Shown here one piece after another: positions 7,906-63,615 of a DNA stretch of 64,000 bases. The number at the start of each line of letters is the position of its first letter. The stretch's first letter is position 1. Under the pieces are notes generated by a model. It saw nothing but the letters and a program-made list of their open reading frames with translations. It had not been told where the DNA came from and made no database searches. The position numbers were made by a program, and so were the translations under genes. The stretch is taken from positions 32,001 to 96,000 of IMG/VR virus record IMGVR_UViG_3300033148_008025; one strand, written 5' to 3'. Source of the stretch: a virus.

Positions 7906-7914
7906 CCTTATGCC
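7906..7914 (-). promoter_or_regulatory. GGCATAAGG motif
   Basis: Exact intergenic copy about 44 nt upstream of the ATG at 7862. Confidence 0.65.
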
Positions 7915-17860: not shown

Positions 17861-18264
17861 ATTTGCTTTCGATGGTGATAGGAGTCCATTAGGGAAGTCC
17901 TGCGTAGACAGTGTTTGCATCCGTCAAAGTTTTCATCGTGGTATCTTCCATGTTCACTCAGGCTCCATACCAAGTCGCGATCATAGAGGCGTGCTCCTTT
18001 CTTGTTCCCTCCGCTTATGCCGATTATCGAGAGGACTCCAAGCATGTGGAGTCTTCTTATTTCGAGCACTACCGTTTCGCGGTTGTCGCGAAGTGAGAAT
18101 ATGAGTTCGGATGTTGTGGCAGGGGATTCGAGAACCTCGACAATGATTCTTCCCTGCACTGGTTCGTTTGATGGTCTAGGGCGCCTCGGATCCGATGGAC
18201 CATGAGACGTCAAATTCCTTGTCGCGATCTTCCTTGCTGTGTTCAAGAAAACTCTTTCTGTCAA
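17857..18264 (-). CDS. possible winged-helix DNA-binding protein (start uncertain)
   Basis: IIVEVLESPATTSELIFSL...VVLEIRRLHMLGVL resembles a wHTH; stop is coupled to the next start. Confidence 0.5.
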   Translation of the reverse strand: MTERVFLNTARKIATRNLTSHGPSDPRRPRPSNEPVQGRIIVEVLESPATTSELIFSLRDNRETVVLEIRRLHMLGVLSIIGISGGNKKGARLYDRDLVWSLSEHGRYHDENFDGCKHCLRRTSLMDSYHHRKQI

Positions 18265-21271: not shown

Positions 21272-21280
21272 CCTTATGCC
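21272..21280 (-). promoter_or_regulatory. GGCATAAGG motif
   Basis: Exact copy 17 nt upstream of ATG 21254, just before the SD. Confidence 0.7.
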
Positions 21281-27950: not shown

Positions 27951-30869
27951 ATGTCTCGCCAAGGAACAGGTTCTAGAGTTGAGCTCCGTATGTACATGGA
28001 GGGGATTCTTGTCGAGAACGGACTAGCAAACGTTAGCGTTAGTGGCGACATCGGAATGCCAGCATCAGCTCAGCTCGAGCTGGTTCCAACCAACACGATA
28101 AAACACATCCTTCCAGGAACATGGATTCATGTTTTTGTGACAGATCCGTGGGAGGTTAATCCAACAGGCAATCTCGATGACTTCAAGTTGCTGTTCGAAG
28201 GTGTTGTCTCGGCTAAGGGATTCACGAAAACCGACGATGGTAGAAACTTCACAGTGCAATGCATCGCACCAGAAGTATTCTGGACCGAAGCTCGTCAGTT
28301 CTGGGTAAACCTTGCGGCTGGAAGCAGTCTCGTTGACCAAATCGTAGTGCAAACGTCGGGAGGCAGTGGTCGCTTCGGAATGATTGGGGGGAACGCCAAG
28401 TTTGGCTACATGCAAAGCAAGCTCAAAAAAATCGAGGATGGAAGCGAGGAGCGCTTCATGGACACACTCGTGTCAGTTCTCGATGATATCGGAGGAGTCA
28501 ACCCGTATTACACCAACGCAAAAAACAGAATAAGACTTACCGATCGTATTGTTAGGGGGGCCGCAGGAAAGACCGAGGAGCTGTTTCAAATATCGCTCTT
28601 CACCGACTTCCTAGAAGGCCTCGCTTCTCGAACTTCCGATCAGTCAAGCTTGCTCGAAGTGATCAACTCTCTGCTTGGTGCAATTCTCCATGAATGGGTT
28701 TCTGTTCCTGCCCCGCCATACATCAAATCTCAAGTCTTTGACCGGGACACGTTCGGAAATATCAAGCGTGGTAAAAGCACCGTAAGGAAAAATACGGGAG
28801 ACGGAAAAAGAAAGAAGAAGGTCGACATCTACGACTTCAAGACTGCCCAGGACGACATTATCGCGAGCATCATATTCAAGCCTCACATCTACACGCTATC
28901 CCCACCTACGTGCAACATCCTCTACCCCAACATGTATGATCAGATGTCATACAGCCACAACCACATGAATGAAACAACGAGGCTTCAGATGCAGCCGCAG
29001 TTGTTTTCCAGTGCTTTCAGGAAGATCTCGAAACACCTGAGGATCATGCGTCCGACCGAACTGGAAATCTTCACCGGTCTCACTCGAGACAAGAAGGCTG
29101 GGACTAGAGGGAAACGGACACCTGATGCCAAGTACGCAGACGGAGCTGGCCAAGCTCCCGTGTTTCACGACTATGACTGGGCAACAAACGAGGAGCGAAT
29201 CCGTGGAATCAAATACAACTTCATAAATCTCGCTCCGGCCCCGGGCACCCTGACGATGACAAGTCAGGGAAAACGACAACCATCCGGAACAAGAAAAGGT
29301 GGTGCACCGAAGTACTTGCAGAACGTGGCAAGCTACGAGTACTACAAGTCAAAGTTTTCGGCCAGAGGCGCAACAGTGTCCGGCCCCTTGAACATTCGCC
29401 CCGTACCAGGGTTTTCAATCCTATTACTGGATGATTCCGCATCCCAGCAGAACATCGTTGCATATCTTAGCGGGATTACTCATTCCATTAGCGCCGACGG
29501 GATGGCAACAACCCAGTACAGCATCAGCCTTCCAAGGCTGACCGACGAGGTGGACTACAATCGCCCTAAGTTCAAGAAAAGCGCGACAGGTGAAAACGAA
29601 ATCGATTTTGACCTATTCAGAGACGAGGAAGGCAGGTACGACTTTGCGAAGCTGTTTGACGGCGTCAATGAGCCGCCGATTCCTGAGTGGTTTGACGACG
29701 ACTACAAAAACCTCCTCGACCTAGACGTGAGATATCGAGAGTGGTTTGGAACCAATGTCGGGGTAACGCAGAACCTCTTATTTGTAGATCCGGAGCAGAC
29801 GGAAAAGAATGCAATCGCAAATCAGGAGGCTGCAAGAGCAGTATACCTGGAGGAGAACGGCGTTGAGCCGGAACCAGGAGAGATACCCGACTATCCAAAA
29901 TCCCTAAAAGACGACATTGTTCAATCAAACAACACGATCGGATTGAATGAGGCAGTTTTGGAACTAAACGAAAGATACACAAAGGCTCGCGGCAACGGCA
30001 GGGAGAAGGAAGAAGCTGGGGTACGAACGGCGAGAGCATTCACGAAAATCGACGAAGCGTTCAGATTCATCGGAGCTTCTCCGTTCGAATTGTCGGACCA
30101 AGCGATAGGCGAAAAGAGCAAGTCCGATCAAACCACCTTTGTGAAAAACCCGGCGTCGGAGAGGGTTATCAACTACAAGACGATGAGGCTAGACAGGTTC
30201 GTCGGAGACACTTCCCCAGGGTCTGGATATTCAGGTGTCCCAGAGGGAGAGTCCAAGGAAACAAACGATTCAAGCGGGAGCGGGGTTTCCGAGCGCATGT
30301 CTGGTGCTTTTTCAAAATTCGATACGATCGTGCACACCGGCGATAAGGCACTCAAGACAAAGGAGAGGGCTGATGCTGTAAAAGCAGAGAGTGCACCTTC
30401 ATCAAGTCCGCGATATGACGGACGCCCCAGAATGTACGATTTTGAATTTCGTATATGGCAGGACTCAATCAAGGCTGCACAGGCAGCGGGGTTCACCATC
30501 GACGGTGAGAAGATTGCCGATTCTGCTGCCGTCGCAGACCACTATGTCAATGGAAGTAGTGGGACAATACGAGGTGCGACTGCCGAAGAGAAAGCTGCTG
30601 CTCGCGAGAGCAGGGTTGCAACAAACGCACAGAGGACTGCAGAGGAAAGCGATCGCATGTCCAAGGGGCGTCATCCTGTTCGACGAGTTCGTTCTAGGTG
30701 CCCAAACATGCCCCCCGCAAACCAGGCTCCCACCGGAGCCGGACTAGAGGAAGAGCTTGTCCTCCCGCTTCCTCAGCCGCTATCGGAAAAGCAGGTTATT
30801 AACATCAGAAGGTCTATCATCGACGCTTATCGAGACGAATTGGAGAGAACTCGTGGATTCACAGGATAG
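27951..30869 (+). CDS. baseplate hub protein (gp27/gp44/VgrG-like)
   Basis: A(Q)LEL...LLFEG.V N-terminus; late GPLNIRPVPG...YL.GITHSI motif; size and position. Confidence 0.55.
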   Translation: MSRQGTGSRVELRMYMEGILVENGLANVSVSGDIGMPASAQLELVPTNTIKHILPGTWIHVFVTDPWEVNPTGNLDDFKLLFEGVVSAKGFTKTDDGRNFTVQCIAPEVFWTEARQFWVNLAAGSSLVDQIVVQTSGGSGRFGMIGGNAKFGYMQSKLKKIEDGSEERFMDTLVSVLDDIGGVNPYYTNAKNRIRLTDRIVRGAAGKTEELFQISLFTDFLEGLASRTSDQSSLLEVINSLLGAILHEWVSVPAPPYIKSQVFDRDTFGNIKRGKSTVRKNTGDGKRKKKVDIYDFKTAQDDIIASIIFKPHIYTLSPPTCNILYPNMYDQMSYSHNHMNETTRLQMQPQLFSSAFRKISKHLRIMRPTELEIFTGLTRDKKAGTRGKRTPDAKYADGAGQAPVFHDYDWATNEERIRGIKYNFINLAPAPGTLTMTSQGKRQPSGTRKGGAPKYLQNVASYEYYKSKFSARGATVSGPLNIRPVPGFSILLLDDSASQQNIVAYLSGITHSISADGMATTQYSISLPRLTDEVDYNRPKFKKSATGENEIDFDLFRDEEGRYDFAKLFDGVNEPPIPEWFDDDYKNLLDLDVRYREWFGTNVGVTQNLLFVDPEQTEKNAIANQEAARAVYLEENGVEPEPGEIPDYPKSLKDDIVQSNNTIGLNEAVLELNERYTKARGNGREKEEAGVRTARAFTKIDEAFRFIGASPFELSDQAIGEKSKSDQTTFVKNPASERVINYKTMRLDRFVGDTSPGSGYSGVPEGESKETNDSSGSGVSERMSGAFSKFDTIVHTGDKALKTKERADAVKAESAPSSSPRYDGRPRMYDFEFRIWQDSIKAAQAAGFTIDGEKIADSAAVADHYVNGSSGTIRGATAEEKAAARESRVATNAQRTAEESDRMSKGRHPVRRVRSRCPNMPPANQAPTGAGLEEELVLPLPQPLSEKQVINIRRSIIDAYRDELERTRGFTG

Positions 30870-31686
30870 GCAGATTGGACTTGAAATAGAGGCTGAGCTG
30901 GAGGAGTGGCTTGACAAGGAAGCTGCTGCTCGAGGTATTGACCGAGAAGCTCTGCAGCAATCAGAGCTGGAGGCGTGGGAGCGTTGGAGTAAGGACCCCA
31001 ACCAGCAAGACTTTGAGACGCTGTACCAGAGTCACCAGCCACTGTTCGAGACAATAGGTGCTCGATACATGAAAAGCAGCAACCTTCCCACAGCTGCAAT
31101 CAGATCTAGGATGACGCAGAACTACGTGAAGGCCCTCGAGGGATACGACCCAACAAGAGGGGCGAAGCTATCGACGCATGTCATGAACACACTTCCGCAT
31201 CACATTCCAAGATACATACAGAAGTATACAAACATTGGAAGAATTCCTGATGACATGGGTGGGATGATCGGACTACTCGAGGAGCGGAATGCTGCACTAT
31301 CAGACCGCCTTGGACGATTGCCGACAAACGACGAGCTCGCTGATGACATGCTAATGTCTGCGCGGGACTATTCCGATCAAAGGAAAAAACTCATAACACC
31401 AAAAAAGGTGGGGACGCTGAGAAGGTCTTTGCGGCTAGACTTTGTCGCAGAAGAGGCTGGCGGCGTTGCCCCAACGCATGGTGTCTCGAAGCTTGAGCAG
31501 CATGCAGTTTATTTGCATGGCTCATTGAATTCCGAGCAAAAACTAATTCTCGAACATACCTACGAAGGGTTTGATAAGCCGATCATCCAGGACGTTGAAC
31601 GACTGTCCAGGACGGTAAAGATGTCTCCTCAAAAGGTTCGTGCGATCAAGAAGCAAATCTGGAAAAAGATGGAACGGTACATGTAA
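30853..31686 (+). CDS. sigma70-family RNA polymerase sigma factor
   Basis: Region 2 KALEGYDPTRGAKLSTH; region 3 LGRLPTNDELADDM; region 4-like LNSEQKLIL...MSPQKVRAIKKQIWKKM; GTG at 30853 with GGAG SD. Confidence 0.8.
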   Translation: MDSQDRQIGLEIEAELEEWLDKEAAARGIDREALQQSELEAWERWSKDPNQQDFETLYQSHQPLFETIGARYMKSSNLPTAAIRSRMTQNYVKALEGYDPTRGAKLSTHVMNTLPHHIPRYIQKYTNIGRIPDDMGGMIGLLEERNAALSDRLGRLPTNDELADDMLMSARDYSDQRKKLITPKKVGTLRRSLRLDFVAEEAGGVAPTHGVSKLEQHAVYLHGSLNSEQKLILEHTYEGFDKPIIQDVERLSRTVKMSPQKVRAIKKQIWKKMERYM

Positions 31687-34132: not shown

Positions 34133-36196
34133 ATGGCACTCCCAGTAAAAGAATTCATCATTGAAAGGCTTCTTGAGTTTGACTCATCCTTTGACACGGG
34201 GTCCGGTGTCCCGACAACCGGGCTACTCATTGAGCCGCTTTCTGTGATTTTGCAACCAGTTATCGATGAGCTATCTGTAGTTCAGGCGAGTTCCTCGATC
34301 CTCACAATCCTTGAGTCTTCTGATCCCGACTCTTTCCCGGAAGACATTGTTGACGGACTGGCATCAAATGCATTTGTCGACAGAAACCCAGGGGAGATTG
34401 GCTCCGATGTCATGCGAATTCGTTTTTTTGAGCCGCAGCAATTTGAGGCGCAACAAGGGGTACTCATCTTCCGCGGCCCAAGCGGTCAACGGTTTACAAA
34501 TTCCGAATCTTTCGTAGTGACCTCATCGGAGATGAGCCTGAACAAAGACGGGAGTCTCTACTTTGCAGACATTCCGATTGTCTCCCTCGAGGAGGGGGAG
34601 GACTTCAATGTCAGTTCTGGTGCAATCACTTCCATGGAGGCCGAACCAAGTGGAGTTGCAAACGTAACAAACCTGTTTGGAATATTAGACGGAAGAGATA
34701 GGGAAACAAACACGGAATTAATCGATCGTATCAAGGTCGCAGTAACCGTTAGGGCACTTGTTACCGGGCGCGGAATCATCGTCACCCTCACCGAGAATTT
34801 CTCCACAATTGAAGAGATTACTCCCGTAGGATTTGGCGACCCTGAGATGATGAGGGACATTGTTTACAACGTTCACATCGGTGGGAATTCCGACGTCTAC
34901 GTGAAAACATCGAATTTCACATCAGGGTTCAAAGATTTTTTCGGAATAGAAGTTGATACTTCTAGGCAGAAATCCGGTTACGGAACAATCTCTCTCCCGC
35001 TCGACTCCGTTGGATACTTCCTTGGGAACTCCGGAATTGACAGGACGAACATCGCGCCAACTGTAAGGGCTATCGATGGGCTTGTTGCCTACGCAGAAAC
35101 CACAGACTACATACTAGACGACACATCTGGAACTATTTTCAGAGTTCCAGCCGGGTCGATTTTTCATCGTGAGGGAATATCTGGAGTTGTAACCGACACC
35201 AAGACATTGACTCAGGTCGGTGAGTTTGCAAGTGCACGGAGAGGTATGATCTTGACTATTGATACCCCGGCAACGGTGTCGGGGAGATACACGGTCAGGG
35301 AGTCTCCAGATGCTGACACTGTCATCATCTACGGGGAGTTCTCAGTGGGATCGGAGACTGGCGTAAACTGGAGTCTTGATGACAACCTTACCGTGTCCTA
35401 CGAGTACAATCCTATCTCTATCGACATAGCTGAAGCTGCAAGGTCTGATGACCGTGAAATATTCACCATTACAGATATCCCGCTTATGTATGTTGAATCC
35501 GTAGAAGTACTTGATCCGCTGTCCGGAGAGCAGACAGGCGTAACCCTGGAACCGCTGGGTGGGTTTGGTGCAGGCGGGTTTGGAGTTGGGGGATTCGGGG
35601 TTGGCAGCGGAGCGGATTTCAAGCTTGTTGTTGTAGACCCAACCCTTCGCCACTCGTCGGAGGAAAGCAACTACATCGAGTTTGACGCTAGCTATGCTGG
35701 CTATGCACTTAGGTTGAACTACTTTTATGCTTCTGCGATTCCGCCGATCCAGGCATTCATGGATGACAGGAACAATCAGAGTCAAACAGCATCGCTACTT
35801 GCTCGCCACCACATCCCAGTGTTTGTTGATACTCAGAAGACGATCAGCTACGACATCTCCGCATCGTCCGAAGCTACTGCGCTGAGCACGGAAGAGATGG
35901 TCTCGCTCATCAGCGACTATATTAACGACATCGACCAGGACGGAGACCTTGAAATCTCCGACATCATTGATGTCATGTATGACAGCGGTGCAACCCGGGT
36001 TGACCTCGGTGCCATACAGGAAATGCGCGGGGAAATTCACAACCATGATGGCTCAATTGAATACACACTTCCTGACAGCACGGGAAGTATGGTTATTCCA
36101 GATAACGACATCGAAGACCCAACTGACAAACCACTGTCCCCGCGCATTGCTAGATTTCGTTCTAGAACAATATCCCTTCAAAGGAACGTTGTATGA
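34133..36196 (+). CDS. baseplate J / gp6-like wedge protein
   Basis: VANVTN...GRDRETNTELIDRI motif. Confidence 0.75.
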   Translation: MALPVKEFIIERLLEFDSSFDTGSGVPTTGLLIEPLSVILQPVIDELSVVQASSSILTILESSDPDSFPEDIVDGLASNAFVDRNPGEIGSDVMRIRFFEPQQFEAQQGVLIFRGPSGQRFTNSESFVVTSSEMSLNKDGSLYFADIPIVSLEEGEDFNVSSGAITSMEAEPSGVANVTNLFGILDGRDRETNTELIDRIKVAVTVRALVTGRGIIVTLTENFSTIEEITPVGFGDPEMMRDIVYNVHIGGNSDVYVKTSNFTSGFKDFFGIEVDTSRQKSGYGTISLPLDSVGYFLGNSGIDRTNIAPTVRAIDGLVAYAETTDYILDDTSGTIFRVPAGSIFHREGISGVVTDTKTLTQVGEFASARRGMILTIDTPATVSGRYTVRESPDADTVIIYGEFSVGSETGVNWSLDDNLTVSYEYNPISIDIAEAARSDDREIFTITDIPLMYVESVEVLDPLSGEQTGVTLEPLGGFGAGGFGVGGFGVGSGADFKLVVVDPTLRHSSEESNYIEFDASYAGYALRLNYFYASAIPPIQAFMDDRNNQSQTASLLARHHIPVFVDTQKTISYDISASSEATALSTEEMVSLISDYINDIDQDGDLEISDIIDVMYDSGATRVDLGAIQEMRGEIHNHDGSIEYTLPDSTGSMVIPDNDIEDPTDKPLSPRIARFRSRTISLQRNVV

Positions 36197-51114: not shown

Positions 51115-53157
51115 ATGGCAAGCACGCAATCAGGATCTTTGGATCGACGTCGGGGAACGGTATATCCATCACCGTTCTTTGATATCGCCCAGACATATAT
51201 GCCGCCAACCGTGAAAGAACTTTTCCGGTGGTGTGCATATTTCTTTTACAAAGATCCAATGATCGGCTCGGTGGTCACGAAGATCGCCGAGTACCCTGTT
51301 ACGGACTTTGTCTACAACGCAAGCCAAAAACATGTTCGCGACGGGTGGAAAGAAATCCTCGAAGACACGCTGAACATGAAACCGTTCCTCATAGAGGTCG
51401 GGCTAGACTACTTCGCATACGGCAATGCATTCATCAGTATCAACCTCCCATTTACACGATGGATCCAGTGTCCCAGTTGTTCGAGTCTTTACAAACTGGA
51501 AGATGAATCCTTCAAGTTCTCGTTCAAAAATTTCGAGTTTCACTTCGAGTGCAAGGACTGTAAATCCAACGTAGTTGGGAAGATCGTCGACAATCCAATA
51601 AGAGATCGCACTGGAATCAATTTCGTCCGGTGGGACCCCAAGAACATAGACATTCACTACAATCCTATTACTGGAAAGTCTAAGTACCGGTACCAGATTC
51701 CAAACAAGATCAAGAAGGCAATCCACAAGGGTAGCCGTGAAATACTGGTCGACATCCCAGAGATTTTCTTCATCGCGCTCAAGAAGAAAAGGGACATACA
51801 GCTATCAGACCAGAACCTTTTTCACTTCAAGCGTCCAACGCTCGCAGAGCAAGACATGGGATGGGGGAAGCCACTAATCATCCATTCGATGGGAAGGATG
51901 TTCTACCTCTACGTTCTCAGAAGGGCTCAAGAGGCTATTGCCTTGCAACGCATAATGCCAATGGAATTCATCTTCCCGCAGGCAAATGCTCAGCAAGACC
52001 CATATCAGCACGTAAATTTATCCTCTTGGCAGGGAAACATAGAGAACGAAATTCACAAATGGAGGCAGGACCCCAATTACATCTCAATCGTTTCTGTTCC
52101 GCTCGGCTTTGAACGTCTTGGCGGTGATGGCAGAGCGCTTCTTCTTGGGCCTGAGATTGAAGTCACGAACAAGGAGATCACGGGTGGAATGGGAGTTCCG
52201 TTAGAATTCGTATTCGGAGGGCTGTCTTGGTCCGGATCCAGTGTTTCGCTACGAACACTGGAAAACCACTTCCTGATGTATCGCCGACTTCTTCTTCGAT
52301 TTGTAAACTGGTCAAAAAATCGAATCAGGCTGTACCTTGGACTTCCCGATATCGACATTGGATTCACAGAATTCAAGATGGCTGATGACGTTCAGCGAAA
52401 ACAAATTGTCATCCAGCTTAACGCTGCCAATAAAATCTCAGACCATACCATGCTCACAGAACTTGGATTTGATTACGACGATGAGCAGGAGATGATAGAG
52501 AAAGAGACCGATCAGCGAAACCAGATTCAGGCGATGACGATGAAGGCTCAGGCAGAAGCACAGGGTGAGTCATCCATCGTCTCCGCAAAGTATCAGGCAA
52601 GAGCGCAGGAAACTTTCCAGGAAGCACAGGGGGCGATCTCTGGCGGGCAACCTGGGCAAACAGAGCAAGCGCAGGCGCAGGTATCAGAAGGCCAGGAGCA
52701 GAACCCTGAAGAGGGCGGAGGGCAGCCTCGGCAACAACAAGGCGAACAACAACAGCCTCAGGACGGGCAACAGCAGATAACGCAAATCCCAACTTCTGCA
52801 CAAGGAATCGGAAAGTCCGAGGATCAGTCCATGGCTGCACAAGCCGCTGCACAGGGTGCTGCACAGGGCCAGGCTGCCGTCGAGGGACAGGCTGGCACTC
52901 AAGCTGGCGGGACTTCTACGGACGTCAAAGACGCCGCGGGGCAGGCAAAGGAGTGGGCCAACATAATCGCCAAGAAGCCACCAGAGGAGCAGGCAAAGAT
53001 TCTCGCAGAAATGGACAGAAAGTTGCCAGCCATGACAAGGCTGGTGAAACAACTTCTTGCGCAAATGGCTCCCGGAGAGACCTCGGGAGATGCCGCAAAG
53101 AAAATGAAGCCCCTTCCACAGAAGGCCCCACCCAGGCGTAACCAGGGGGTCATCTAA
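51115..53157 (+). CDS. portal protein with Zn-ribbon insertion and Gln-rich tail
   Basis: DPMIGSVV.KIAEYP; DYFAYGNAF; FHFK...WGKP; I.GGMGVP.EF..G..SWSGS; CPSC...CKDC. Confidence 0.7.
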   Translation: MASTQSGSLDRRRGTVYPSPFFDIAQTYMPPTVKELFRWCAYFFYKDPMIGSVVTKIAEYPVTDFVYNASQKHVRDGWKEILEDTLNMKPFLIEVGLDYFAYGNAFISINLPFTRWIQCPSCSSLYKLEDESFKFSFKNFEFHFECKDCKSNVVGKIVDNPIRDRTGINFVRWDPKNIDIHYNPITGKSKYRYQIPNKIKKAIHKGSREILVDIPEIFFIALKKKRDIQLSDQNLFHFKRPTLAEQDMGWGKPLIIHSMGRMFYLYVLRRAQEAIALQRIMPMEFIFPQANAQQDPYQHVNLSSWQGNIENEIHKWRQDPNYISIVSVPLGFERLGGDGRALLLGPEIEVTNKEITGGMGVPLEFVFGGLSWSGSSVSLRTLENHFLMYRRLLLRFVNWSKNRIRLYLGLPDIDIGFTEFKMADDVQRKQIVIQLNAANKISDHTMLTELGFDYDDEQEMIEKETDQRNQIQAMTMKAQAEAQGESSIVSAKYQARAQETFQEAQGAISGGQPGQTEQAQAQVSEGQEQNPEEGGGQPRQQQGEQQQPQDGQQQITQIPTSAQGIGKSEDQSMAAQAAAQGAAQGQAAVEGQAGTQAGGTSTDVKDAAGQAKEWANIIAKKPPEEQAKILAEMDRKLPAMTRLVKQLLAQMAPGETSGDAAKKMKPLPQKAPPRRNQGVI

Positions 53158-55548: not shown

Positions 55549-55557
55549 CCTTATGCC
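55549..55557 (-). promoter_or_regulatory. GGCATAAGG motif
   Basis: Exact intergenic copy, back to back with the RNAP start. Confidence 0.6.
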
Positions 55558-55569
55558 AAGACAATGTAG

Positions 55570-58500
55570 GTGCCGACTATGGAAAGCTTCGATTACCAGG
55601 ACCAGTTCAACAGGGTTAAGAAGGATGTTATTGCATCCGTGACCAAGGCTCTCGATATCCAATCTGCTGGTGCAAACCGCAAAATGGTTGTCCATAAAGT
55701 ATGGATCGATGACAACAAAAACCCAGCAGACTGGGAGTCTCAAAAGCAGGCCGTACGAAAAGATAAGACTTGGGGAGTACCTGTCTATGCAACCGTTGAT
55801 CTCATTGACCGAAAGACCGGAGCGGTTCTTTCCTCTGAGGAAAGGATCAAGGTAGCCACACTTCCGAGGCCCACGAACCTCGGGAGTTTCATCATCGACG
55901 GAAAACACTATCAGGTTCAGTCTCAGCTTCGCCGCAAACCTGGTGTCTACACCGTTCAGAAGCGAAACAAACAACTCAAGACTGAGGTGAACATCCAGAA
56001 GCGCCCATTTGATATCGATATGGATCCGGAAACTCAGATCTTCAAAATGAAGAAAGCGGGTTCCGACCAGGCGTTTGCCTTGTATCCGATTCTCTCTAGG
56101 CTTGGAATCTCAGATGTGGCAATGGCTCGAAGATGGGGCAAAGACGTTCTCGAGGCAAACAAATCAATCAAGCCGAAGAACGCCGAGGTCTCAGTAAGAA
56201 AGGCTGCGTTGTTCTTTACTGGAAGCAACTTTGATTCTGCCGAGGACGCAGCAAATGCAATAAAGGAGTACTTTCAGGATACCGAAATAAAGCCAGAGGT
56301 GACCAAGTCAACCCTCGGAAAAGCGTATACGAAGGTTACGCCCGACCTCTTGCTAAGAGGATCAGAAGAGCTTCTTCGGGCAAACAGGGGAGAGCGCGAA
56401 GCGGATGACAGGCAAGCTCTTGAGTTCAAGAAAGTTCTCGGAATGAGCGACCTGATGAGAGAGAGAATGCTCCAAAGCGATGGGCAACTAGCTGGTGCCA
56501 TGTCCAAAGTAAGAGGCGGAATCTCCAGGAAAATCAACAACCGAAAGAAACCTGTCTCGGAAATCTCCAAACTCATAAAGACGAACGAGTTCACGCCGTT
56601 CTTCAACTCTTTTTTTAGCCAATCTTCGCTATCAAACATCACAGACCAAACTAATCCGATCACCATGCTGAACGGAACCGCCAAGATCACCGTACTCGGG
56701 GAAGGGGGGGTAATGGATGCCACCAGAGTTCGAGGCGAAGAGAGAGCTGTACACCCATCTCAGATGGGATTTATAGATCCGATCCATACGCCCGACTCTG
56801 GAAACATTGGACTGGTAATGAACCTTCCACTTGGAGTCACCAAGAATGGGGAGAATCTACAAACAAAGGTGATAGATCCGATAACTAAAAAAATCAGATC
56901 GATTACCCCGAGTGAAGCAAGAAACATGGTCGTAGCTTTCCCGGATCAGTATTCAAAGAAGACTGGAAAGTTCCTGGGAGACAAAGTCAGAGCATTTGTG
57001 AATGGGCAATTTGAGAACGTGTCGCCAGACAGGGTTGATGTCGTTCTTGCTAGCCCAAAGCAAGCATTCTCAATTGCATCAAATACCATCCCGTTCCTTC
57101 CTGCGGCACAGGGCGTTAGAGCGCAGATGGCAACCAAGATGCTTGAGCAGGCAATTCCTCTCTCGGAAAGAGAAGCTCCTTTGGTCCAGGTTGGACTTGG
57201 TAGAAGCACTATCGAGAAAAGCATAGGAGAGGGGTTCTCTGTCCAGGCGCTGGACGACGGAATCATAGAGAAAGTCGAAGACGGCAAGATCACGATAAAG
57301 ACCAAGGATGGAAAGGTGGAGCAAAAACTCTACACGAATATCCCGCTAAACAAAAAAGCGTTTCTGACGTCAACCTCGACAGTCAAAGAGGGGGATGCCG
57401 TCAAAAAGGGAGACGTTATCGCTGACTCGAATTTCACGAAAGATGGTCAGCTTGCACTTGGAACAAACCTTCGAGCAGCCTACATCCCATACAAGGGATA
57501 CAACTTCGAAGATGGAATTGTAATCACTGAGAGCGCGGCAAAAAAACTTACCAGCGAGCACATGAACGAGTTTGCATCATCCATAGAAAAAGGAATGGAG
57601 GTCTCACTTAAAGACTACATGGCATGGAAGGGTGGGGGGCTCGACCTCAGCCAGCGACGAAAACTTGACAAGGATGGGGTCATCAAAATTGGCGAAACTG
57701 TTCACAAGGGCGATGCACTTTGGGTCGGAACAAGGGAGAATAAGTATGACCCAGACTATATCGCAGCCAAGAAAATGAATCCCAACCAAGATCCTAAGAA
57801 GGCCTACAGGGAGGAGTGGACAAAGGATGGGTTAGGGGAAGTTGTCGACGTAGTCAAAAGCAACGGTAAGATCAAGGTTTACGTGAAGTCTAAGGAGGCT
57901 GCGGTCATAGGTGATAAGCTCACAAATCGTCACGGCGGAAAAGGAATTGTAACCAAAATTATCCCGGACGGAGAAGCACCTTATACAGCAGACGGAAGAG
58001 CTGTCGATATCCTGCTCAACCCTCACGGCGTCGTGAGCAGAATCAATCCTTCCCAGATCCTCGAAACAGCAGCAGCCAAAATTGCCGACCTCGAAGGCAA
58101 GCCGTATGTTGTCGAAAACTTTTCCGGCGAAAATTACACGGAGTCTGTAACGAAAGCTGTCAAGAAGGCAGGCATCTCAGATACTGAAACCCTGTATGAC
58201 CCGCACACAAAGAAAGCACTCGGTGATGTTCTTGTTGGCCCCCAGTACACCCTGAAGCTTTCAAAGCAGGCAACGTCTCAGTTCTCTGCACGCTCTGAGG
58301 GGAAGTACGATGCAGATCTTGCTCCGCTCAAGGGTGGAGAAGATGGTGCAAAAGCCCTCGACATGTTGACGTTCTACTCGATGCTTTCGCATGGCGCTCG
58401 TTCAAACATTAGGGAGATGGCAACATACAAAGCAACCGAGAACAAAGAGTTCTGGCGATGGGTCGAGAGAGGGGCCTCGTCCGGAATGATTACGCCTCCG

Positions 58501-61500
58501 CCAGAACCAACTCTTGCATACAAGAAGTTCGAAGCCTACATGAAGGGCGCCGGTGTCAACATGGAACGACGTGGGTCAAAGATGGTGCTTGGGCCAATGA
58601 CCGACGAGATGACAGACAAGATCAGTAATGGGAAAGTTCGAGATGCAACATTCCTTCGAGCGAAAGATCTGAAGTACGAGCGCGGCGGACTGATGGATCC
58701 AAACATATTCGGCCAAGGCGACAAGTGGGGACACATCGAACTTGCCGAATCCATTCCAAATCCAGTCTTTGAAAAACCAATCAAAGTACTCACCGGCATA
58801 GATGACAGAACATTCAAGGCAGTGGTCAAAGGCGAAAGATTCTTAGACCCTAAAACCAATGAGTGGAATGAAAAGAAAGGGCTTACTGGTGGCGAAGCCA
58901 TCTCTCATTTACTGAAGCAGGTTGACGTAGATAAAGAAATTGCCATCTGGACAGACAAAGCAAAAGGAGCGGCCTACAAAAAAAGGAAGGACGGGACTCG
59001 AACGGAGGACGAACTGAACACTGCCAATAAAAGGCTTCGCTATCTTCATGCCCTCAAGAAACTAAACATGTCCCCGGACAAGGCTTACATCCAAAAGAAA
59101 ATTCCAGTTGTCCCAACGCAGTTTAGGAAGATCATCGAAATGGAGGGAGGCAACCTCTCCAACGCCGGACTCAACTCTCTGTACCGAGATGTTGGTTTGA
59201 TTAGCGACCAGCTCAAGTGGCAGAAAACCGTCGACTACATGCCCGAGTCCGTAAAGGCGGAGCTTAGGGAGAATCTGTACGGAAGTGTGAAGGCCGTAGC
59301 TGGACTCGGAGAGCAGGTGAGGCGAGGAGGAAGTCAGAAAGCTGACAAGCGTCCAAGGGGCATCATCGAACAACTAAAAGGAAAGAAAGCAAAAGAAGGG
59401 TTCTTTCAGCGGAAGGTTTTGCGCAGAACGCAGAACCTCGTCGGGAGAGGAACGATCATTCCAGATCCGAAGCTCGGGGTTGACGAGGTCGGCCTCCCGA
59501 AAGAAATGTCCTGGACACTGTTCGAGAAGTTTGTAACTCGACGCCTAGTCAATAGTGGGTACAAACCGAATGATGCAATCGAGGCAGTAAACAATCGAAC
59601 CCCTGCAGCACTATCTGCCCTGCAAGCGGAGATGGAAAGCAGGCCGGTAATGCTCAACAGGGCACCGTCACTCCATAAGTTCTCTATCCAATCGTTCAAA
59701 CCAAGAATGGTCGATGGAAAAGCGATCAAGATCCCTCCACTCATTGTCGGAGGCTTCAACGCCGACTTCGATGGAGACGCAATGACTGTGCACGTTCCAG
59801 TACTCAGCGACTCAGTGGCCGAGGCTAAGAAGATGCTCCCATCTAGGAACCTGTACAGTCCCGGAACTGGCGACATCATGATCAAACCCCAGAATGAAGC
59901 CGCCCTAGGGCTGTATCAGATGTCAATCGATCCAAAGCTCAAGGGGAAGATCTTAGAAGAACTTCCCGAGAAGACCAGAGCCAAATTCGAAAACCGTCCA
60001 CTCGATAAGAAGGGGCTTGGAGATCTGATGAAGAGCCTCGCAATCGAAAGTCCGGATGGGCATGGTGCGGTTGTCGACAAGCTCAAGCTTATGGGTGACG
60101 ACCACACATACAAGACTGGATTCACAGTCAGCCTGAAAGACTTGTCCCCGGTTCTTCCTGAGAGGAATGCAATATTCGCAAGAACGAAAAAAGACCTAGC
60201 GGGAATTGATACTAAAACCAGGAAAGGAAGAGAGGAAGCATCTGCTTTAATTTCCGCCGCAGACAAAGAACTGGAAGCCGTCTTAGCCAGTCGCCTCGAT
60301 GAGCAAGGAAACAGTTTTCGACTAATGGTGAGATCTGGCGCTCGAGGGAACATGCAGCAGCTCAAGCAGATCCTATCTGCTCCGTTTGCCGTTCCAGACC
60401 ATAGGGGGCAAGTGCTGGCAGAACCGATTACAACATCCTTTGCCGAAGGGCTGCCATTCTCGGATTACTGGAACACGCTATATGGGGCGAGGGCTGTTGC
60501 AACGGATAAGCAACTCCAAACCCAATTGCCGGGGGCATTCAACAAAGACATCATGGCCTCTTCCGTTACCAACGTGATCTCCGGCGCGGATTGTGGGGTT
60601 AATCGAGGAGTGAAGATTTCACTCAAGAGTAAAATCGATGACGCAGAAGATCGTTACCTGGCCAAGGACATAAGTGTTGGCGGAACAGTTGTTGCCAGAG
60701 CGGGAACGCTTATGAGTACTGGACTGCTCAACACGCTGCGAGACCGAAAAGTCGACAACGTGGAAGTTCGCTCTCCACTCACCTGTAATAAGCCGAAGGG
60801 TACATGCGCAAAATGCTTTGGACTCAACGAGAGTGGAAATCTATCTCAGATTGGGGACAACATTGGAGCTACCGCCGGCCAGGCTCTGTCTGAACCATTG
60901 ACCCAGATGACACTGAGAACCTTCCACCAGGGAGGTGTTGCTGGAGGGCGAGGTGTTGTGAGCGGATACGACAAAATCGACAAGCTCTTTAAGATGCCAA
61001 AGATCAAAAGAGGAAAAGCCACCCTTGCCAAAAGTGATGGAGTCATTGAAAGCGTAAAAAATGCACCTGGTCGAACAGGGAAAAACATCAAAATCAGTGG
61101 CTATAGAAAAACTCATTTTGTTGAAAACGATCTGTGGAACAGCAACAAAGCTCGCGTTGGGAAGAATGTTTTCAAGGGGGACATCCTCTCCGACGGACTT
61201 GTTCAGCCACAGGAACTCGTCGAATTAAAAGGAATGCAGAGTGCACAAGAATACCTTGTCGATGAGATTCAAGATGCCTACGGATCTCAGGGAGTGAAGC
61301 TGAAAAGAAAGACTGTAGAAACAGTAATCAGGGCAGTTGCGAACACCACAAAGATCCACGACGCAGGCGACAGCAACTTCCTCATCGGCGATGTTGCACC
61401 ATGGACGGTTGTGGAGGATTACAACCGGAGATCTCTAGGTAAAAAAGGACTCGATGAGATTATCGGACTTGCCCTCAAAGAGGACGTTCCTGGCATCAGA

Positions 61501-61800
61501 AAGAATACGATTATCTCCGAGAAAATTCGAAGCACGCTGGAGCGCATGGGCAAATCGGAAGTTGAGGTGGGACCGCGTCCAATCGGGCACGAGCCGTTCC
61601 TGAAGGGGATTGAGCAGATTCCAATGTTGCGCAAAGACTGGATGAGCCAGATGGGATACCGGAACATAGAAAAGGCGATCACTGAGGGTGCTGCTACTCT
61701 TTCAGAGTCCGACATCCACGGGTATGCGCCGGTCCCAGCATTTGCCTACGGAGCCGAATTTGGGCTACCTGGCGGAGGAAAAGAGGAGGGAAGTTACTAA
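55570..61800 (+). CDS. rpoBC: fused beta-beta' multisubunit-type DNA-directed RNA polymerase (2076 aa)
   Basis: Beta motifs: GSFIIDG...SQLRRKPG, VHPSQMGFIDPIHTPD, GYNFEDGI, GDKLTNRHGGKG, LNPHGVVSRIN. Beta' motifs: GHIELA, LNRAPSLH, NADFDGD (59758-59778), SGARG, CNKPKGTCAKCFG, EPLTQMTLRTFH. No stop at the junction near 58560-58590. Confidence 0.97.
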   Translation: MPTMESFDYQDQFNRVKKDVIASVTKALDIQSAGANRKMVVHKVWIDDNKNPADWESQKQAVRKDKTWGVPVYATVDLIDRKTGAVLSSEERIKVATLPRPTNLGSFIIDGKHYQVQSQLRRKPGVYTVQKRNKQLKTEVNIQKRPFDIDMDPETQIFKMKKAGSDQAFALYPILSRLGISDVAMARRWGKDVLEANKSIKPKNAEVSVRKAALFFTGSNFDSAEDAANAIKEYFQDTEIKPEVTKSTLGKAYTKVTPDLLLRGSEELLRANRGEREADDRQALEFKKVLGMSDLMRERMLQSDGQLAGAMSKVRGGISRKINNRKKPVSEISKLIKTNEFTPFFNSFFSQSSLSNITDQTNPITMLNGTAKITVLGEGGVMDATRVRGEERAVHPSQMGFIDPIHTPDSGNIGLVMNLPLGVTKNGENLQTKVIDPITKKIRSITPSEARNMVVAFPDQYSKKTGKFLGDKVRAFVNGQFENVSPDRVDVVLASPKQAFSIASNTIPFLPAAQGVRAQMATKMLEQAIPLSEREAPLVQVGLGRSTIEKSIGEGFSVQALDDGIIEKVEDGKITIKTKDGKVEQKLYTNIPLNKKAFLTSTSTVKEGDAVKKGDVIADSNFTKDGQLALGTNLRAAYIPYKGYNFEDGIVITESAAKKLTSEHMNEFASSIEKGMEVSLKDYMAWKGGGLDLSQRRKLDKDGVIKIGETVHKGDALWVGTRENKYDPDYIAAKKMNPNQDPKKAYREEWTKDGLGEVVDVVKSNGKIKVYVKSKEAAVIGDKLTNRHGGKGIVTKIIPDGEAPYTADGRAVDILLNPHGVVSRINPSQILETAAAKIADLEGKPYVVENFSGENYTESVTKAVKKAGISDTETLYDPHTKKALGDVLVGPQYTLKLSKQATSQFSARSEGKYDADLAPLKGGEDGAKALDMLTFYSMLSHGARSNIREMATYKATENKEFWRWVERGASSGMITPPPEPTLAYKKFEAYMKGAGVNMERRGSKMVLGPMTDEMTDKISNGKVRDATFLRAKDLKYERGGLMDPNIFGQGDKWGHIELAESIPNPVFEKPIKVLTGIDDRTFKAVVKGERFLDPKTNEWNEKKGLTGGEAISHLLKQVDVDKEIAIWTDKAKGAAYKKRKDGTRTEDELNTANKRLRYLHALKKLNMSPDKAYIQKKIPVVPTQFRKIIEMEGGNLSNAGLNSLYRDVGLISDQLKWQKTVDYMPESVKAELRENLYGSVKAVAGLGEQVRRGGSQKADKRPRGIIEQLKGKKAKEGFFQRKVLRRTQNLVGRGTIIPDPKLGVDEVGLPKEMSWTLFEKFVTRRLVNSGYKPNDAIEAVNNRTPAALSALQAEMESRPVMLNRAPSLHKFSIQSFKPRMVDGKAIKIPPLIVGGFNADFDGDAMTVHVPVLSDSVAEAKKMLPSRNLYSPGTGDIMIKPQNEAALGLYQMSIDPKLKGKILEELPEKTRAKFENRPLDKKGLGDLMKSLAIESPDGHGAVVDKLKLMGDDHTYKTGFTVSLKDLSPVLPERNAIFARTKKDLAGIDTKTRKGREEASALISAADKELEAVLASRLDEQGNSFRLMVRSGARGNMQQLKQILSAPFAVPDHRGQVLAEPITTSFAEGLPFSDYWNTLYGARAVATDKQLQTQLPGAFNKDIMASSVTNVISGADCGVNRGVKISLKSKIDDAEDRYLAKDISVGGTVVARAGTLMSTGLLNTLRDRKVDNVEVRSPLTCNKPKGTCAKCFGLNESGNLSQIGDNIGATAGQALSEPLTQMTLRTFHQGGVAGGRGVVSGYDKIDKLFKMPKIKRGKATLAKSDGVIESVKNAPGRTGKNIKISGYRKTHFVENDLWNSNKARVGKNVFKGDILSDGLVQPQELVELKGMQSAQEYLVDEIQDAYGSQGVKLKRKTVETVIRAVANTTKIHDAGDSNFLIGDVAPWTVVEDYNRRSLGKKGLDEIIGLALKEDVPGIRKNTIISEKIRSTLERMGKSEVEVGPRPIGHEPFLKGIEQIPMLRKDWMSQMGYRNIEKAITEGAATLSESDIHGYAPVPAFAYGAEFGLPGGGKEEGSY

Positions 61801-62129
61801 TGGACGAAATAAGAAAACTGGCTGAGAGTTCACTGCAGGAGGCTGTGAGCATAGCTAGGCTCGCGGGGGGCGCCGGGATGAGGATTAAGCTTGGAGCTGC
61901 CCTACCCAAGCTCCCGAGTGCTGCGCAGCAGCTTAGGGCTACTGCGAGCTCCTCTTGGAGGATGGGAGCCTCGCCGCCAAAGCCGAAGTCTATGCGTCCA
62001 AACGGACGCATAGGAGATCCGGCTAGGACCAGGTCGCCAGCCAAGCCTCCAAGCAAGAAGGCATTTTACCGAGACATGGTTCTCGGAATGGACCCGAGTT
62101 ATGGCAACCGTATGGCTGTCAAAGGCTAA
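61800..62129 (+). CDS. small basic protein with DEIRKLA leader, coupled to the RNAP gene
   Basis: TAATG overlap with the RNAP stop; Pro/Arg/Lys-rich. Confidence 0.55.
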   Translation: MDEIRKLAESSLQEAVSIARLAGGAGMRIKLGAALPKLPSAAQQLRATASSSWRMGASPPKPKSMRPNGRIGDPARTRSPAKPPSKKAFYRDMVLGMDPSYGNRMAVKG

Positions 62130-63606: not shown

Positions 63607-63615
63607 CCTTATGCC
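63607..63615 (-). promoter_or_regulatory. GGCATAAGG motif
   Basis: Exact copy about 52 nt upstream of the ssb ATG. Confidence 0.65.

What the first reader, a model, noticed from the sequence alone, without database searches (positions are those of the whole stretch)
55570..61800. 2076-aa single-polypeptide beta-beta' RNA polymerase in a phage structural region
Seen: the conserved beta and beta' segments occur in bacterial order in one ORF. The junction reads ...GVNMERRGSKMVLGPMTD..., and the catalytic NADFDGD, bridge helix, trigger-loop His (RTFH), flap and C-terminal Zn site are present. No alpha or omega gene is in the window, and the neighbours are portal and membrane genes rather than ribosomal protein genes. 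Known: chromosomal rpoBC fusions exist in Helicobacter and Wolbachia; phage two-barrel RNAPs are usually split or far more diverged. Inferred: a streamlined phage lineage of the enzyme that may assemble without alpha.
Basis: partly seen in the sequence, partly recalled or inferred. Interest (0 to 1): 0.88.

Follow-up and report, generated by a model that had tools for sequence, protein, structure and literature searches.

The report
Single-chain phage RNA polymerase (beta-beta' fusion)
A large uncultured phage encodes both catalytic subunits of a bacterial-type RNA polymerase as one slimmed 2073-residue protein just downstream of its portal gene, together with its own sigma factor. Hundreds of uncultured phages share the design, but nobody has tested how the enzyme works.

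Summary
Window 55570-61800 (+) is one uninterrupted ORF; the real start is probably ATG 55579, giving 2073 aa. It carries a complete bacterial-type beta module followed directly by a complete beta' module, with all catalytic elements intact.

It is not a recent capture or a mis-assembly. It is only 24-30% identical to cellular rpoB/rpoC. In my trees it sits in a phage-only clade, separated from the 30 sampled bacteria by a long, fully supported branch. More than 120 distinct 50%-identity clusters of ~2000-aa fused homologues exist in metagenomes.

The window comes from a 121-kb IMG/VR phage record. Complete relatives (185-198 kb) and the isolate Salmonella phage Arash have one RNAP gene, no alpha, no omega, and a sigma70-family gene. 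This window's sigma gene is at 30853-31686. A complex model places this sigma on the beta' clamp helices (0.76, best control 0.03), but that is a textbook pair.

In Arash, the homologous polymerase and sigma were detected in virions.

Best reading: a self-contained, sigma-dependent, probably virion-packaged single-chain RNAP.

The clade is published (mReC, 2020), but only as two-gene forms. This scan has met the fused form before on other DNA. Verdict: a new variant of a known kind, of moderate interest.

The parts
55579..61800 (+). Gene for the single-chain beta-beta' RNA polymerase. It is 2073 aa from ATG 55579; the ORF is open from GTG 55570, giving 2076 aa. Residue numbers in this report count from 55570.
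55570..58560 (+). Beta module, residues 1 to about 997. It contains the protrusion, a reduced lobe, the fork and Rif-pocket region, the flap and the catalytic DPBB.
   Evidence: Pfam Rpb2_3 and Rpb2_6. AF2 model pLDDT 82, pTM 0.78. Foldseek top hits are bacterial beta, TMq 0.77, E about 1e-71.
56611..56700 (+). Rifampicin-pocket / fork-loop segment, residues 348-377. By alignment, E. coli Q513 becomes N356, H526 becomes G369, R529 becomes K372 and S531 becomes T374.
   Evidence: MAFFT alignment to Salmonella RpoB. The meaning of these positions for rifampicin is my own knowledge.
57751..57777 (+). Predicted flap-tip helix, residues 728-736. In bacteria this is the docking site of sigma region 4.
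   Evidence: Alignment to E. coli beta about 891-915. The model has a helix at 728-736.
57928..57945 (+). RHGGKG, residues 787-792. This is the beta active-site lysine motif (E. coli RHGNKG, K1065).
   Evidence: K791 and G792 are invariant and R787 nearly so in 22 homologues.
58552..58605 (+). Beta-to-beta' junction, residues 995-1012 (GVNMERRGSKMVLGPMTD). The natural beta C-terminus runs straight into the natural beta' N-terminus.
   Evidence: No length variation at the junction across the aligned fused homologues (40 of 77 rows printed and inspected).
58570..61797 (+). Beta' module, residues 1001-2076.
   Evidence: Pfam Rpb1_1, _2, _4 and _5. PDB phmmer E=1e-103 to bacterial beta'. AF2 pLDDT 81. 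Foldseek TMq 0.80, rmsd about 5 A to bacterial beta'.
58705..58725 (+). Site of the deleted beta' N-terminal zinc ribbon, residues 1046-1052 (FGQGDKW). About 28 residues are missing, including the equivalents of E. coli C70, C72, C85 and C88.
   Evidence: The deletion is family-wide.
59176..59331 (+). Clamp helices, residues 1203-1254. This is the predicted docking surface for the phage sigma.
   Evidence: Aligned to the E. coli beta' clamp-helix region, about residues 262-309. Interface residues from the complex model.
59758..59778 (+). NADFDGD catalytic Mg-binding loop, residues 1397-1403.
   Evidence: D1399, F1400, D1401, G1402 and D1403 are invariant and N1397 and A1398 nearly so in the 22-sequence alignment; all seven are invariant in the 25-sequence beta' alignment.
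60484..60564 (+). Bridge helix, residues 1639-1665. It is diverged, but G1639 and R1641 are invariant.
60592..60816 (+). Second zinc site: C1675, C1739, C1746 and C1749, equivalent to E. coli C814, C888, C895 and C898.
   Evidence: The cysteines are nearly invariant.
60916..60927 (+). Trigger-loop RTFH, residues 1783-1786. No SI3 insert follows it.
   Evidence: H1786 is invariant.
30853..31686 (+). Phage sigma70-family factor, 277 aa (P0123), with regions 2 to 4. It is embedded among tail and baseplate genes.
   Evidence: PHROG 351, E=7.8e-9. SigA 7l7b_F, E=6.7e-7 over residues 57-273. Arash gp10, E=8e-17. 78 homologues, several on contigs of the same lengths as contigs carrying fused RNAPs. 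Present in 5 of 5 complete relatives.
51115..53157 (+). Portal protein, 680 aa, upstream of the RNAP gene.
   Evidence: Arash gp204, E=2e-93. A portal homologue was found in 69 of 85 related loci; in every hit inspected it lies upstream of the RNAP gene.
55549..55557 (-). GGCATAAGG, one copy of a strand-specific intergenic motif and a candidate phage promoter. It lies in the divergent region upstream of the RNAP gene and points away from it.

Best explanation
This is an active DNA-dependent RNA polymerase of the bacterial two-barrel type. Beta and beta' are one polypeptide, joined at their natural termini.

Shown here: it keeps the whole catalytic core. It has lost the lineage-specific inserts and the beta' N-terminal zinc ribbon.

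Inferred, step 1: the covalent fusion replaces the assembly role of the alpha dimer. The enzyme would therefore need neither alpha nor omega.

Inferred, step 2: promoter specificity comes from the phage's own sigma70-family factor (window 30853-31686). This factor would dock on the clamp helices as in bacteria.

Inferred, step 3 (from the cultured relative Arash, from gene position and from strand): the polymerase and sigma are made late with the structural genes. They are packaged into the capsid and delivered with the DNA. They would then start phage transcription independently of the host enzyme.

It is one member of a very large, deep-branching, phage-only RNAP clade.
For: An intact enzyme:
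- One ORF with beta then beta' Pfam domains.
- E=1e-103 to solved bacterial beta'.
- Both halves fold with pLDDT 81-82. They superpose on bacterial beta and beta' with TMq 0.77-0.80.
- NADFDGD, RHGxKG, the bridge-helix GAR, the trigger-loop His and the four Zn2 cysteines are invariant or nearly so in homologues 37-66% identical.

Phage lineage:
- The record is a 121-kb IMG/VR virus with portal and baseplate genes.
- FastTree puts 25 phage rows against 30 cellular rows on one branch with support 100. The beta'-only tree gives the same split.

Abundance:
- At least 531 IMG/VR stretches encode relatives.
- 77 of the best 80 loci have a single ORF of 1800-2300 aa.
- 126 of the best 150 50%-identity clusters are 1900 aa or longer.

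No alpha or omega, one RNAP, a sigma:
- Own record.
- Four CheckV-100% relatives plus Arash: alpha 0 of 5, omega 0 of 5, sigma 5 of 5, and exactly one RNAP locus each: one ORF in the four relatives, two genes in Arash.

Sigma docking:
- The complex model scores 0.76, against a best control of 0.03. That mark was reached by 58 of 80 solved complexes and 2 of 110 mismatched pairs.
- The runs agree in at least 45% of contacts, and the partner's pLDDT is at least 68.
- The interface is RNAP 1203-1254 (clamp helices) with sigma 49-92 (region 2).
- Sigma-core complexes are solved many times, so this pass shows likeness and may come from memory.

Virion link:
- In Arash, the homologues Gp206 (most spectra of any protein), Gp216 and sigma Gp10 were detected in purified particles (PMC10585845).
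- A portal homologue was found in 69 of 85 related loci, upstream of the RNAP gene in every hit inspected.
- The sigma gene sits among tail and baseplate genes.

Precedent: a 2026 review states that phage multisubunit RNAPs lack alpha and omega and do not stably bind the host ones (PMC13282480).
Against: - No activity, virion or expression data exist for this phage. The Arash proteins are only about 30% identical to this one.
- The Arash authors themselves say the enzymes could be abundant contaminants of the particle preparation.
- Absence of an alpha gene does not exclude use of host alpha. I could not examine the alpha-contact surfaces.
- The own record is only 67% complete.
- The sigma match to family models is weak: Sigma70_r2 E=0.03 and r3 E=8e-4, both below the curated cut-offs.
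- My trees use FastTree. Their bacterial sampling is skewed towards Patescibacteria, and they have no archaeal or eukaryotic outgroup.
Confidence: 0.6

Rival explanations
1. Hybrid enzyme. The fused beta-beta' chain is a real polymerase core, but it still assembles with the host's alpha dimer, and perhaps with omega. The engineered E. coli fusion and the natural Helicobacter rpoBC fusion behave this way.
For: The fold is bacterial throughout, so alpha-contact surfaces could persist. Cellular rpoBC fusions keep alpha (my own knowledge). No tool result here excludes alpha binding.
Against: None of five complete relatives carries an alpha gene. A virion-delivered enzyme would then depend on a host subunit. 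Other phage multisubunit RNAPs do not stably bind host alpha or omega (PMC13282480). The clade spans phages binned with MAGs of very different phyla, which would demand compatibility with very different alphas.
Confidence: 0.2
2. Not packaged. It is an intracellular polymerase for middle or late genes, made after infection. Host RNAP transcribes the early genes, and the position near the portal gene has no functional meaning.
For: Virion association rests on one proteomic study of a relative that is about 30% identical. Its authors allow for carry-over of abundant proteins. Nothing in this window measures packaging.
Against: A portal homologue was found in 69 of 85 diverse related loci, upstream of the RNAP gene in every hit inspected. 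There is only one RNAP gene per complete genome, and it lies on the structural-gene strand. Sigma sits inside the tail module and was also found in Arash particles.
Confidence: 0.3
3. Recent capture of a bacterial rpoBC fusion, or a chimeric assembly that joins bacterial DNA to a phage contig.
For: None found. Two relatives lie in contigs labelled as bacterial MAGs (L005, L006).
Against: The best cellular identity is 24-30%. A long, fully supported branch separates the phage clade from all sampled bacteria. GC content is even across the gene and its flanks. The same fused gene lies downstream of a portal in dozens of independent assemblies. The two 'MAG' contigs are 162 and 204 kb, which is phage-genome size.
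Confidence: 0.01
4. A catalytically dead relic retained as a structural or DNA-binding virion protein.
For: None found.
Against: All catalytic residues are invariant or nearly invariant across homologues down to 37% identity. That pattern indicates selection on catalysis.
Confidence: 0.02

Closest known systems
RNA polymerase of Salmonella phage Arash (Gp206 + Gp216, with sigma Gp10; PMC10585845) and of Vibrio phages D69, D148 and D181
   Same: The same phage RNAP clade; these are sister to all fully fused forms in my trees. They are about 30% identical over 98% of the length. Beta is fused in frame to the N-terminal part of beta'. The gene follows the portal gene. The sigma is homologous, and there is no alpha or omega. 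In Arash, all three proteins were detected in virions.
   Different: In those phages the chain is broken after about residue 1480 of this protein. The beta' C-terminal third is a separate gene, 4.7 kb downstream in Arash. Here the whole enzyme is one chain. The published annotations call Gp206 simply 'beta subunit' and do not remark on the fusion.
mReC, multisubunit-RNAP-encoding Caudovirales (Weinheimer & Aylward 2020, PMC7481178)
   Same: Uncultured tailed phages whose beta and beta' are recognisable with cellular HMMs and form a deep clade apart from cellular enzymes. In my beta' tree, two-gene forms of the size they list nest among the fused forms.
   Different: In both parts of their Supplementary Data 2 that list 'Metagenomic phage' rows, beta and beta' are always two different genes, and none is fused. 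The paper mentions fusion only for crAssphage. It does not discuss sigma, alpha, omega or virion packaging. I did not verify that the two-gene sequences in my tree are their contigs.
Cellular rpoBC fusions (Helicobacter, Wolbachia) and the engineered E. coli rpoB-rpoC fusion
   Same: Beta C-terminus joined to beta' N-terminus in one functional chain (my own knowledge).
   Different: Those are ordinary chromosomal enzymes of their bacterial lineages. They have alpha, omega, the zinc ribbon and the lineage inserts. This protein is 24-30% identical to cellular enzymes and falls outside all sampled bacteria.
phiKZ- and AR9-type jumbo-phage virion and non-virion RNAPs
   Same: Phage-encoded two-barrel enzymes that lack alpha and omega, with a virion-packaged form used for early transcription.
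   Different: Those are split into 4-5 polypeptides, come as two paralogous sets, are far more diverged, and have no sigma70-family gene. Here there is one gene, one chain, close likeness to bacterial folds, and a recognisable sigma.
crAss-like phage virion RNAP and YonO-type single-chain two-barrel RNAPs
   Same: Both barrels in a single polypeptide. The crAss-like enzyme is virion-packaged (abstract of 10.1101/2020.03.07.982082).
   Different: Those show no detectable similarity to the cellular beta and beta' HMMs. This protein matches them at E=1e-53 and better and keeps the flap, clamp helices, bridge helix and trigger loop.

Membership tests
Bacterial-type multisubunit RNAP catalytic core (beta + beta') | Beta' double-psi barrel with the NADFDGD Mg site | tested here: met
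   Residues 1397-1403. D1399-D1403 are invariant and N1397 and A1398 nearly so in 22 homologues. Pfam Rpb1_2, E=9e-26.
Bacterial-type multisubunit RNAP catalytic core (beta + beta') | Beta barrel with the active-site lysines (RHGNKG) and the flap | tested here: met
   RHGGKG at 787-792. Pfam Rpb2_6, E=7e-53. The model matches bacterial beta at TMq 0.77.
Bacterial-type multisubunit RNAP catalytic core (beta + beta') | Bridge helix, trigger loop and second Zn site | tested here: met
   G1639/R1641, H1786, and C1675/C1739/C1746/C1749.
Bacterial-type multisubunit RNAP catalytic core (beta + beta') | Beta' N-terminal zinc ribbon (four Cys) | tested here: not met
   About 28 residues, including all four Cys, are deleted here and in the family.
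Bacterial-type multisubunit RNAP catalytic core (beta + beta') | Alpha dimer and omega as partners | tested here: not met
   No such gene in the record or in 5 complete relatives. Binding of host alpha or omega could not be tested here.
Bacterial-type multisubunit RNAP catalytic core (beta + beta') | Sigma70-family factor docking on the clamp helices | tested here: inconclusive
   A phage sigma is present. The complex model scores 0.76 against a best control of 0.03, with the canonical interface. This is a textbook pair and a model, not a measurement.
mReC clade (Weinheimer & Aylward 2020) | Tailed-phage contig with structural marker genes | tested here: met
   Portal, and baseplate J / wedge. 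The record is classed as a virus.
mReC clade (Weinheimer & Aylward 2020) | Beta and beta' detectable with cellular models, yet forming a clade apart from cellular enzymes | tested here: met
   Limits: FastTree, 22-30 bacterial rows, no archaeal or eukaryotic rows.
mReC clade (Weinheimer & Aylward 2020) | Beta and beta' as separate proteins, as in every listed mReC contig | tested here: not met
   One chain here. Their table lists two gene ids per contig.
mReC clade (Weinheimer & Aylward 2020) | Groups with the published mReC sequences themselves | not tested
Only look-alike two-gene forms (P0219, P0222, P0223) were placed, and they fall inside the same clade.
Arash / Vibrio D69-type virion-associated RNAP | Homologous core downstream of the portal gene, with a homologous sigma | tested here: met
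Arash / Vibrio D69-type virion-associated RNAP | Protein present in purified virions | not testable with these tools
   Known only for Arash (PMC10585845). This phage is uncultured.
Cellular rpoBC fusions (Helicobacter, Wolbachia) | Nests within its host's bacterial lineage | tested here: not met
   Phage-only clade, 24-30% identity to any cellular enzyme. Helicobacter and Wolbachia themselves were not in the tree.
phiKZ-type jumbo-phage RNAPs | Core split into 4-5 polypeptides, two paralogous sets, no sigma | tested here: not met
   One ORF, one set, and a sigma present. Definition taken.

The most novel reading that the evidence does not exclude
The clade's enzyme would be the smallest natural sigma-dependent RNA polymerase of the cellular type. 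It would be one chain plus a phage sigma70-family factor, with no alpha, omega or beta' zinc ribbon. It would be packed in the capsid near the portal and injected with the DNA. There it would fire single-element GGCATAAGG-type promoters on the early-gene strand, independently of the host polymerase. This would break the current rule that phages with multisubunit RNAPs have no sigma and phages with sigmas have no RNAP.
Probability: 0.35. Interest if true: 0.75.

Novelty: new variant of a known kind. Interest (0 to 1): 0.55.

Why it matters
Bacterial RNAP needs alpha2 as an assembly platform. It also carries many lineage-specific inserts. A natural 2073-residue single chain that keeps only the universal core, yet still appears to use a sigma70-type factor, would be a compact model. 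It could be used to study what is essential for assembly, promoter opening and sigma cycling.

It also bears on the origin of viral versus cellular polymerases. The clade branches outside the sampled bacteria.

A 2026 review summarises phage multisubunit RNAPs as lacking sigma, and sigma-encoding jumbo phages as lacking an RNAP. This clade combines both.

Cultured members exist (Arash; Vibrio phages D69, D148 and D181), so the questions can be tested directly. For this particular window the result is one more member of a very large family, not a unique object.

Tried and rejected
- **Downstream ORF as a subunit.** ORF 61800-62129 (109 aa) starts at a TAATG overlap with the RNAP stop. I tested it as a possible omega-like subunit. 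It is conserved in only 10 close relatives and is not adjacent to the RNAP gene there. It has no Pfam or PHROG match. Rejected.
- **Second RNAP set or second sigma in the record.** None found.
- **Arash Gp217 helicase and the Arash genes lying between its two RNAP genes.** No homologues in this record.
- **Single-sequence scan of IMG/VR.** It found only one locus. The profile scan was needed.
- **De novo search for a second promoter-like motif.** I looked upstream of + strand genes and found nothing convincing. I also looked for a conserved -35-like element upstream of GGCATAAGG. By eye, only 3 of 11 copies share GCAC 16 nt upstream. Not pursued.
- **P0070.** Its longest contig has the same length as the Arash genome (180,819 bp). 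I judged this a coincidence, because the Arash enzyme is split.
- **Literature searches.** I searched for a description of a fused bacterial-type phage RNAP and found none in the held library. Subscription papers are not covered.

Full report
**1. Observation**

Window 55570-61800 (+) is a single ORF with no internal stop. Pfam finds the beta domains Rpb2_3 and Rpb2_6 at residues 357-914. It then finds the beta' domains Rpb1_1, _2, _4 and _5 at residues 1006-1935. The best matches among solved structures are bacterial beta' chains, at E=1e-103.

- the junction, residues 995-1012
- NADFDGD, 1397-1403
- the bridge helix, from G1639
- the trigger-loop RTFH, 1783-1786
- the second zinc site: C1675, C1739, C1746, C1749

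The true start is probably ATG 55579, giving 2073 aa. An AGGTG lies 6 nt upstream of it. Homologues begin at that methionine, and the database copy is 2073 aa.

**2. Anatomy**

I aligned the protein to Salmonella RpoB and RpoC, which share E. coli numbering. The beta C-terminus runs directly into the beta' N-terminus. The junction shows no length variation across the aligned fused homologues; 40 of the 77 rows were printed and inspected.

Missing relative to E. coli:
- beta SI1 and most of the lobe region (about 225-445)
- beta SI2 (about 938-1040)
- a segment around beta 1120-1180
- part of beta' 525-610
- beta' SI3

Retained:
- the lid, clamp helices and rudder
- a flap with a predicted tip helix at 728-736
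- the F-loop and bridge helix
- the trigger loop
- the jaw and the C-terminal region

There is a phage-specific insert of about 47 residues near 1958-2005.

In the rifampicin pocket, E. coli Q513, H526, R529 and S531 correspond to N356, G369, K372 and T374. Because of the H526 and Q513 replacements, I infer from general knowledge that the enzyme is insensitive to rifampicin.

AlphaFold2 models of the two halves were built with alignments of 25 family members. They reach pLDDT 82 and 81. They superpose on bacterial beta (TMq 0.77, E about 1e-71) and on bacterial beta' (TMq 0.80, rmsd about 5 A).

**3. Where it comes from**

The window is bases 32001-96000 of a 121,454-bp IMG/VR virus record that CheckV rates 67% complete. 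Neighbouring genes include:
- a portal (51115-53157; E=2e-93 to Arash gp204)
- baseplate J / wedge (34133-36196)
- an SNF2-family helicase

GC content is even across the region.

**4. Relatives**

The word-indexed search returned more than 110 full-length fused homologues. They are 1990-2105 aa and 37-66% identical. Others of 2400-3000 aa carry intein domains.

A profile scan of IMG/VR found at least 531 matching stretches. Of the best 80 loci, 77 hold one uninterrupted ORF of 1800-2300 aa.

I then ran an exhaustive HMMER search with the beta' half. Of the best 150 representatives of 50%-identity clusters, 126 are 1900 aa or longer.

Among 185,579 species-representative genomes, only two of the best 80 loci are fused relatives (L005, L006). 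Both sit on contigs of 162 and 204 kb. I read these as phage genomes binned into MAGs. The other loci are ordinary rpoB-rpoC pairs at 24-30% identity.

Cultured relatives are Vibrio phages D69, D148 and D181 and Salmonella phage Arash, all about 30% identical. In these phages, beta plus the N-terminal part of beta' form one gene just downstream of the portal. The beta' C-terminal third is a separate gene.

**5. Phylogeny**

I built a FastTree of concatenated beta and beta' with 56 rows and 2017 columns. It places the 25 phage rows on one side of a branch with support 100. The 30 cellular rows lie on the other side: Bacillota, Gammaproteobacteria, Planctomycetota, Bacteroidota and Patescibacteria. 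Arash plus D69 are sister to all fully fused forms.

A beta'-only tree gives the same split. It also places two-gene phage forms among the fused forms: P0219, P0222 and P0223. Locus L170 shows beta then beta' as neighbouring genes. Gene architecture has therefore changed several times inside one phage clade.

Limits of these trees:
- FastTree only
- bacterial sampling skewed towards Patescibacteria
- no archaeal or eukaryotic outgroup

**6. Literature**

Weinheimer & Aylward (2020) described 97 tailed-phage contigs whose beta and beta' branch deeply apart from cellular enzymes, and named them mReC. In both parts of their Supplementary Data 2 that list phage rows, beta and beta' are always two different genes, and none is fused. 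The paper mentions fusion only for crAssphage.

The Arash paper reports that Gp206 has the most spectra of any protein in purified virions. It also reports that Gp216 and the sigma factor Gp10 are detected there. The authors caution that abundant enzymes might be carried over.

A 2026 review states two things. First, phage multisubunit RNAPs lack alpha, sigma and omega homologues and do not stably bind the bacterial ones. Second, sigma-encoding jumbo phages lack an RNAP.

I found no paper describing a fused bacterial-type phage RNAP in the held library.

**7. Partners**

Neither alpha (PF01000) nor omega (PF01192) is found in the 121-kb record.

I then checked five complete relatives: four CheckV-100% genomes of 185-198 kb (three with terminal repeats) and the complete Arash genome.

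| Feature | Found in |
|---|---|
| Alpha | 0 of 5 |
| Omega | 0 of 5 |
| Exactly one RNAP locus | 5 of 5 (one ORF in the four relatives, two genes in Arash) |
| Homologue of this window's sigma | 5 of 5 |

The single weak PF01193 hit among them is full of stop codons.

That sigma is at 30853-31686 and is 277 aa. It matches:
- PHROG 351, E=7.8e-9
- SigA regions 2 to 4 in PDB, E=6.7e-7
- Arash Gp10, E=8e-17

It lies among tail and baseplate genes, as Gp10 does.

I ran a complex prediction of RNAP residues 1000-1460 with the sigma, both supplied as alignments.
- It scored 0.76, against a best control of 0.03.
- That mark was reached by 58 of 80 solved complexes and 2 of 110 mismatched pairs.
- The runs agree in at least 45% of contacts.
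- The partner's pLDDT is at least 68.
- The interface is RNAP 1203-1254 with sigma 49-92 and 123-125.

This is the canonical contact between the clamp helices and sigma region 2. Because such complexes are solved many times, the pass shows likeness and may come from memory. It does not show binding.

**8. Mechanism proposed**

Shown: an intact, conserved catalytic core in one chain. It is a member of a phage-only clade, there is no alpha or omega gene in complete genomes, and a cognate sigma70-family gene is present.

Inferred:
- The fusion makes the alpha platform unnecessary.
- The sigma gives promoter specificity.
- The enzyme and sigma are made with the structural genes and packaged.
- They are delivered with the DNA to start transcription.

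Four points support the inference of packaging:
- The Arash proteomics.
- A portal homologue found in 69 of 85 related loci, upstream of the RNAP gene in every hit inspected.
- The single RNAP gene per genome, lying on the structural-gene strand.
- The sigma's place inside the tail module.

A fused chain would also guarantee 1:1 delivery of both barrels at the very low copy number of an injected protein. This last argument is mine and is not tested.

**9. Candidate promoter (side result)**

GGCATAAGG occurs five times in the window, all on the - strand. About 0.2 copies are expected by chance, and none of 100 shuffles reached five. There are nine exact copies in the whole record, again all on the - strand. 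Most are intergenic and lie 15-40 nt upstream of starts of - strand genes.

In 85 related loci, oriented by the RNAP gene, the motif occurs 22 times on the opposite strand and twice on the same strand.

It may be the promoter of the genes transcribed opposite to the structural block. Which polymerase uses it is unknown.

**10. Verdict**

'Streamlined phage lineage' holds. 'Assembles without alpha' is plausible but untested.

The object is common in metagenomes, and its clade is published. This scan had already met the fused form on other DNA, with the same closest relatives named. The fused, sigma-paired, apparently virion-linked architecture is not described in the literature I could search.

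I rate it a new variant of a known kind, with interest 0.55.

Noticed in passing
window 1742-1750, 7906-7914, 21272-21280, 55549-55557, 63607-63615 (all - strand): GGCATAAGG occurs 5 times in the window, against 0.2 expected, and always on the - strand. There are nine exact copies in the whole record, mostly intergenic and 15-40 nt upstream of - strand gene starts. In 85 related loci it occurs 22 times on the strand opposite the RNAP gene and twice on the same strand. It is a candidate phage promoter.
   Followed up: partly
window 18176-20116 (-): A SNF2-family helicase (Pfam SNF2-rel_dom plus Helicase_C) homologous to Arash gp198c. Iyer et al. 2021 link SNF2-type helicases to phage RNAPs as possible RapA-like partners.
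   Followed up: no
window 3030-5129 (+): A 699-aa protein with a KTSC domain and a C-terminal InPase (inorganic pyrophosphatase, PF18823) domain.
   Followed up: no
window 61800-62129 (+): A 109-aa ORF whose ATG overlaps the RNAP stop codon (TAATG), with GAGGAGGG just upstream. It is conserved only in about 10 close relatives and is not adjacent to the RNAP gene there. It has no family match.
   Followed up: yes
L007:155-4852 (contig CAZHST010000095.1, 7.1 kb, labelled uncultured bacterium): A different, much shorter fused beta-beta' ORF of 1566 aa. It sits on a very long branch between the phage clade and the cellular enzymes. Possibly another single-chain lineage.
   Followed up: no
Homologues P0026, P0035, P0055, P0072, P0111 and many of P0323-P0459: Many family members carry intein and LAGLIDADG domains (PF14890, PF14528) and reach 2400-3700 aa. 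61 of the best 150 cluster representatives are 2250 aa or longer. This window's copy has none.
   Followed up: no
L005 (contig CBDHHL010000046.1, 162 kb) and L006 (contig DAOQAF010000001.1, 204 kb): Two GTDB species-representative MAGs, labelled Leptolyngbyaceae and Bacteroidales, contain phage-genome-sized contigs that carry the fused RNAP. These are probably phage genomes binned with bacterial MAGs.
   Followed up: no
L171:3595-10835 (NCBI GCA_012974705.1, contig of 116.6 kb): Another architecture in a close relative: a 1434-aa ORF followed 100 nt later by a 944-aa beta' piece that is 49% identical to this protein. It may be a split or an interrupted gene.
   Followed up: no
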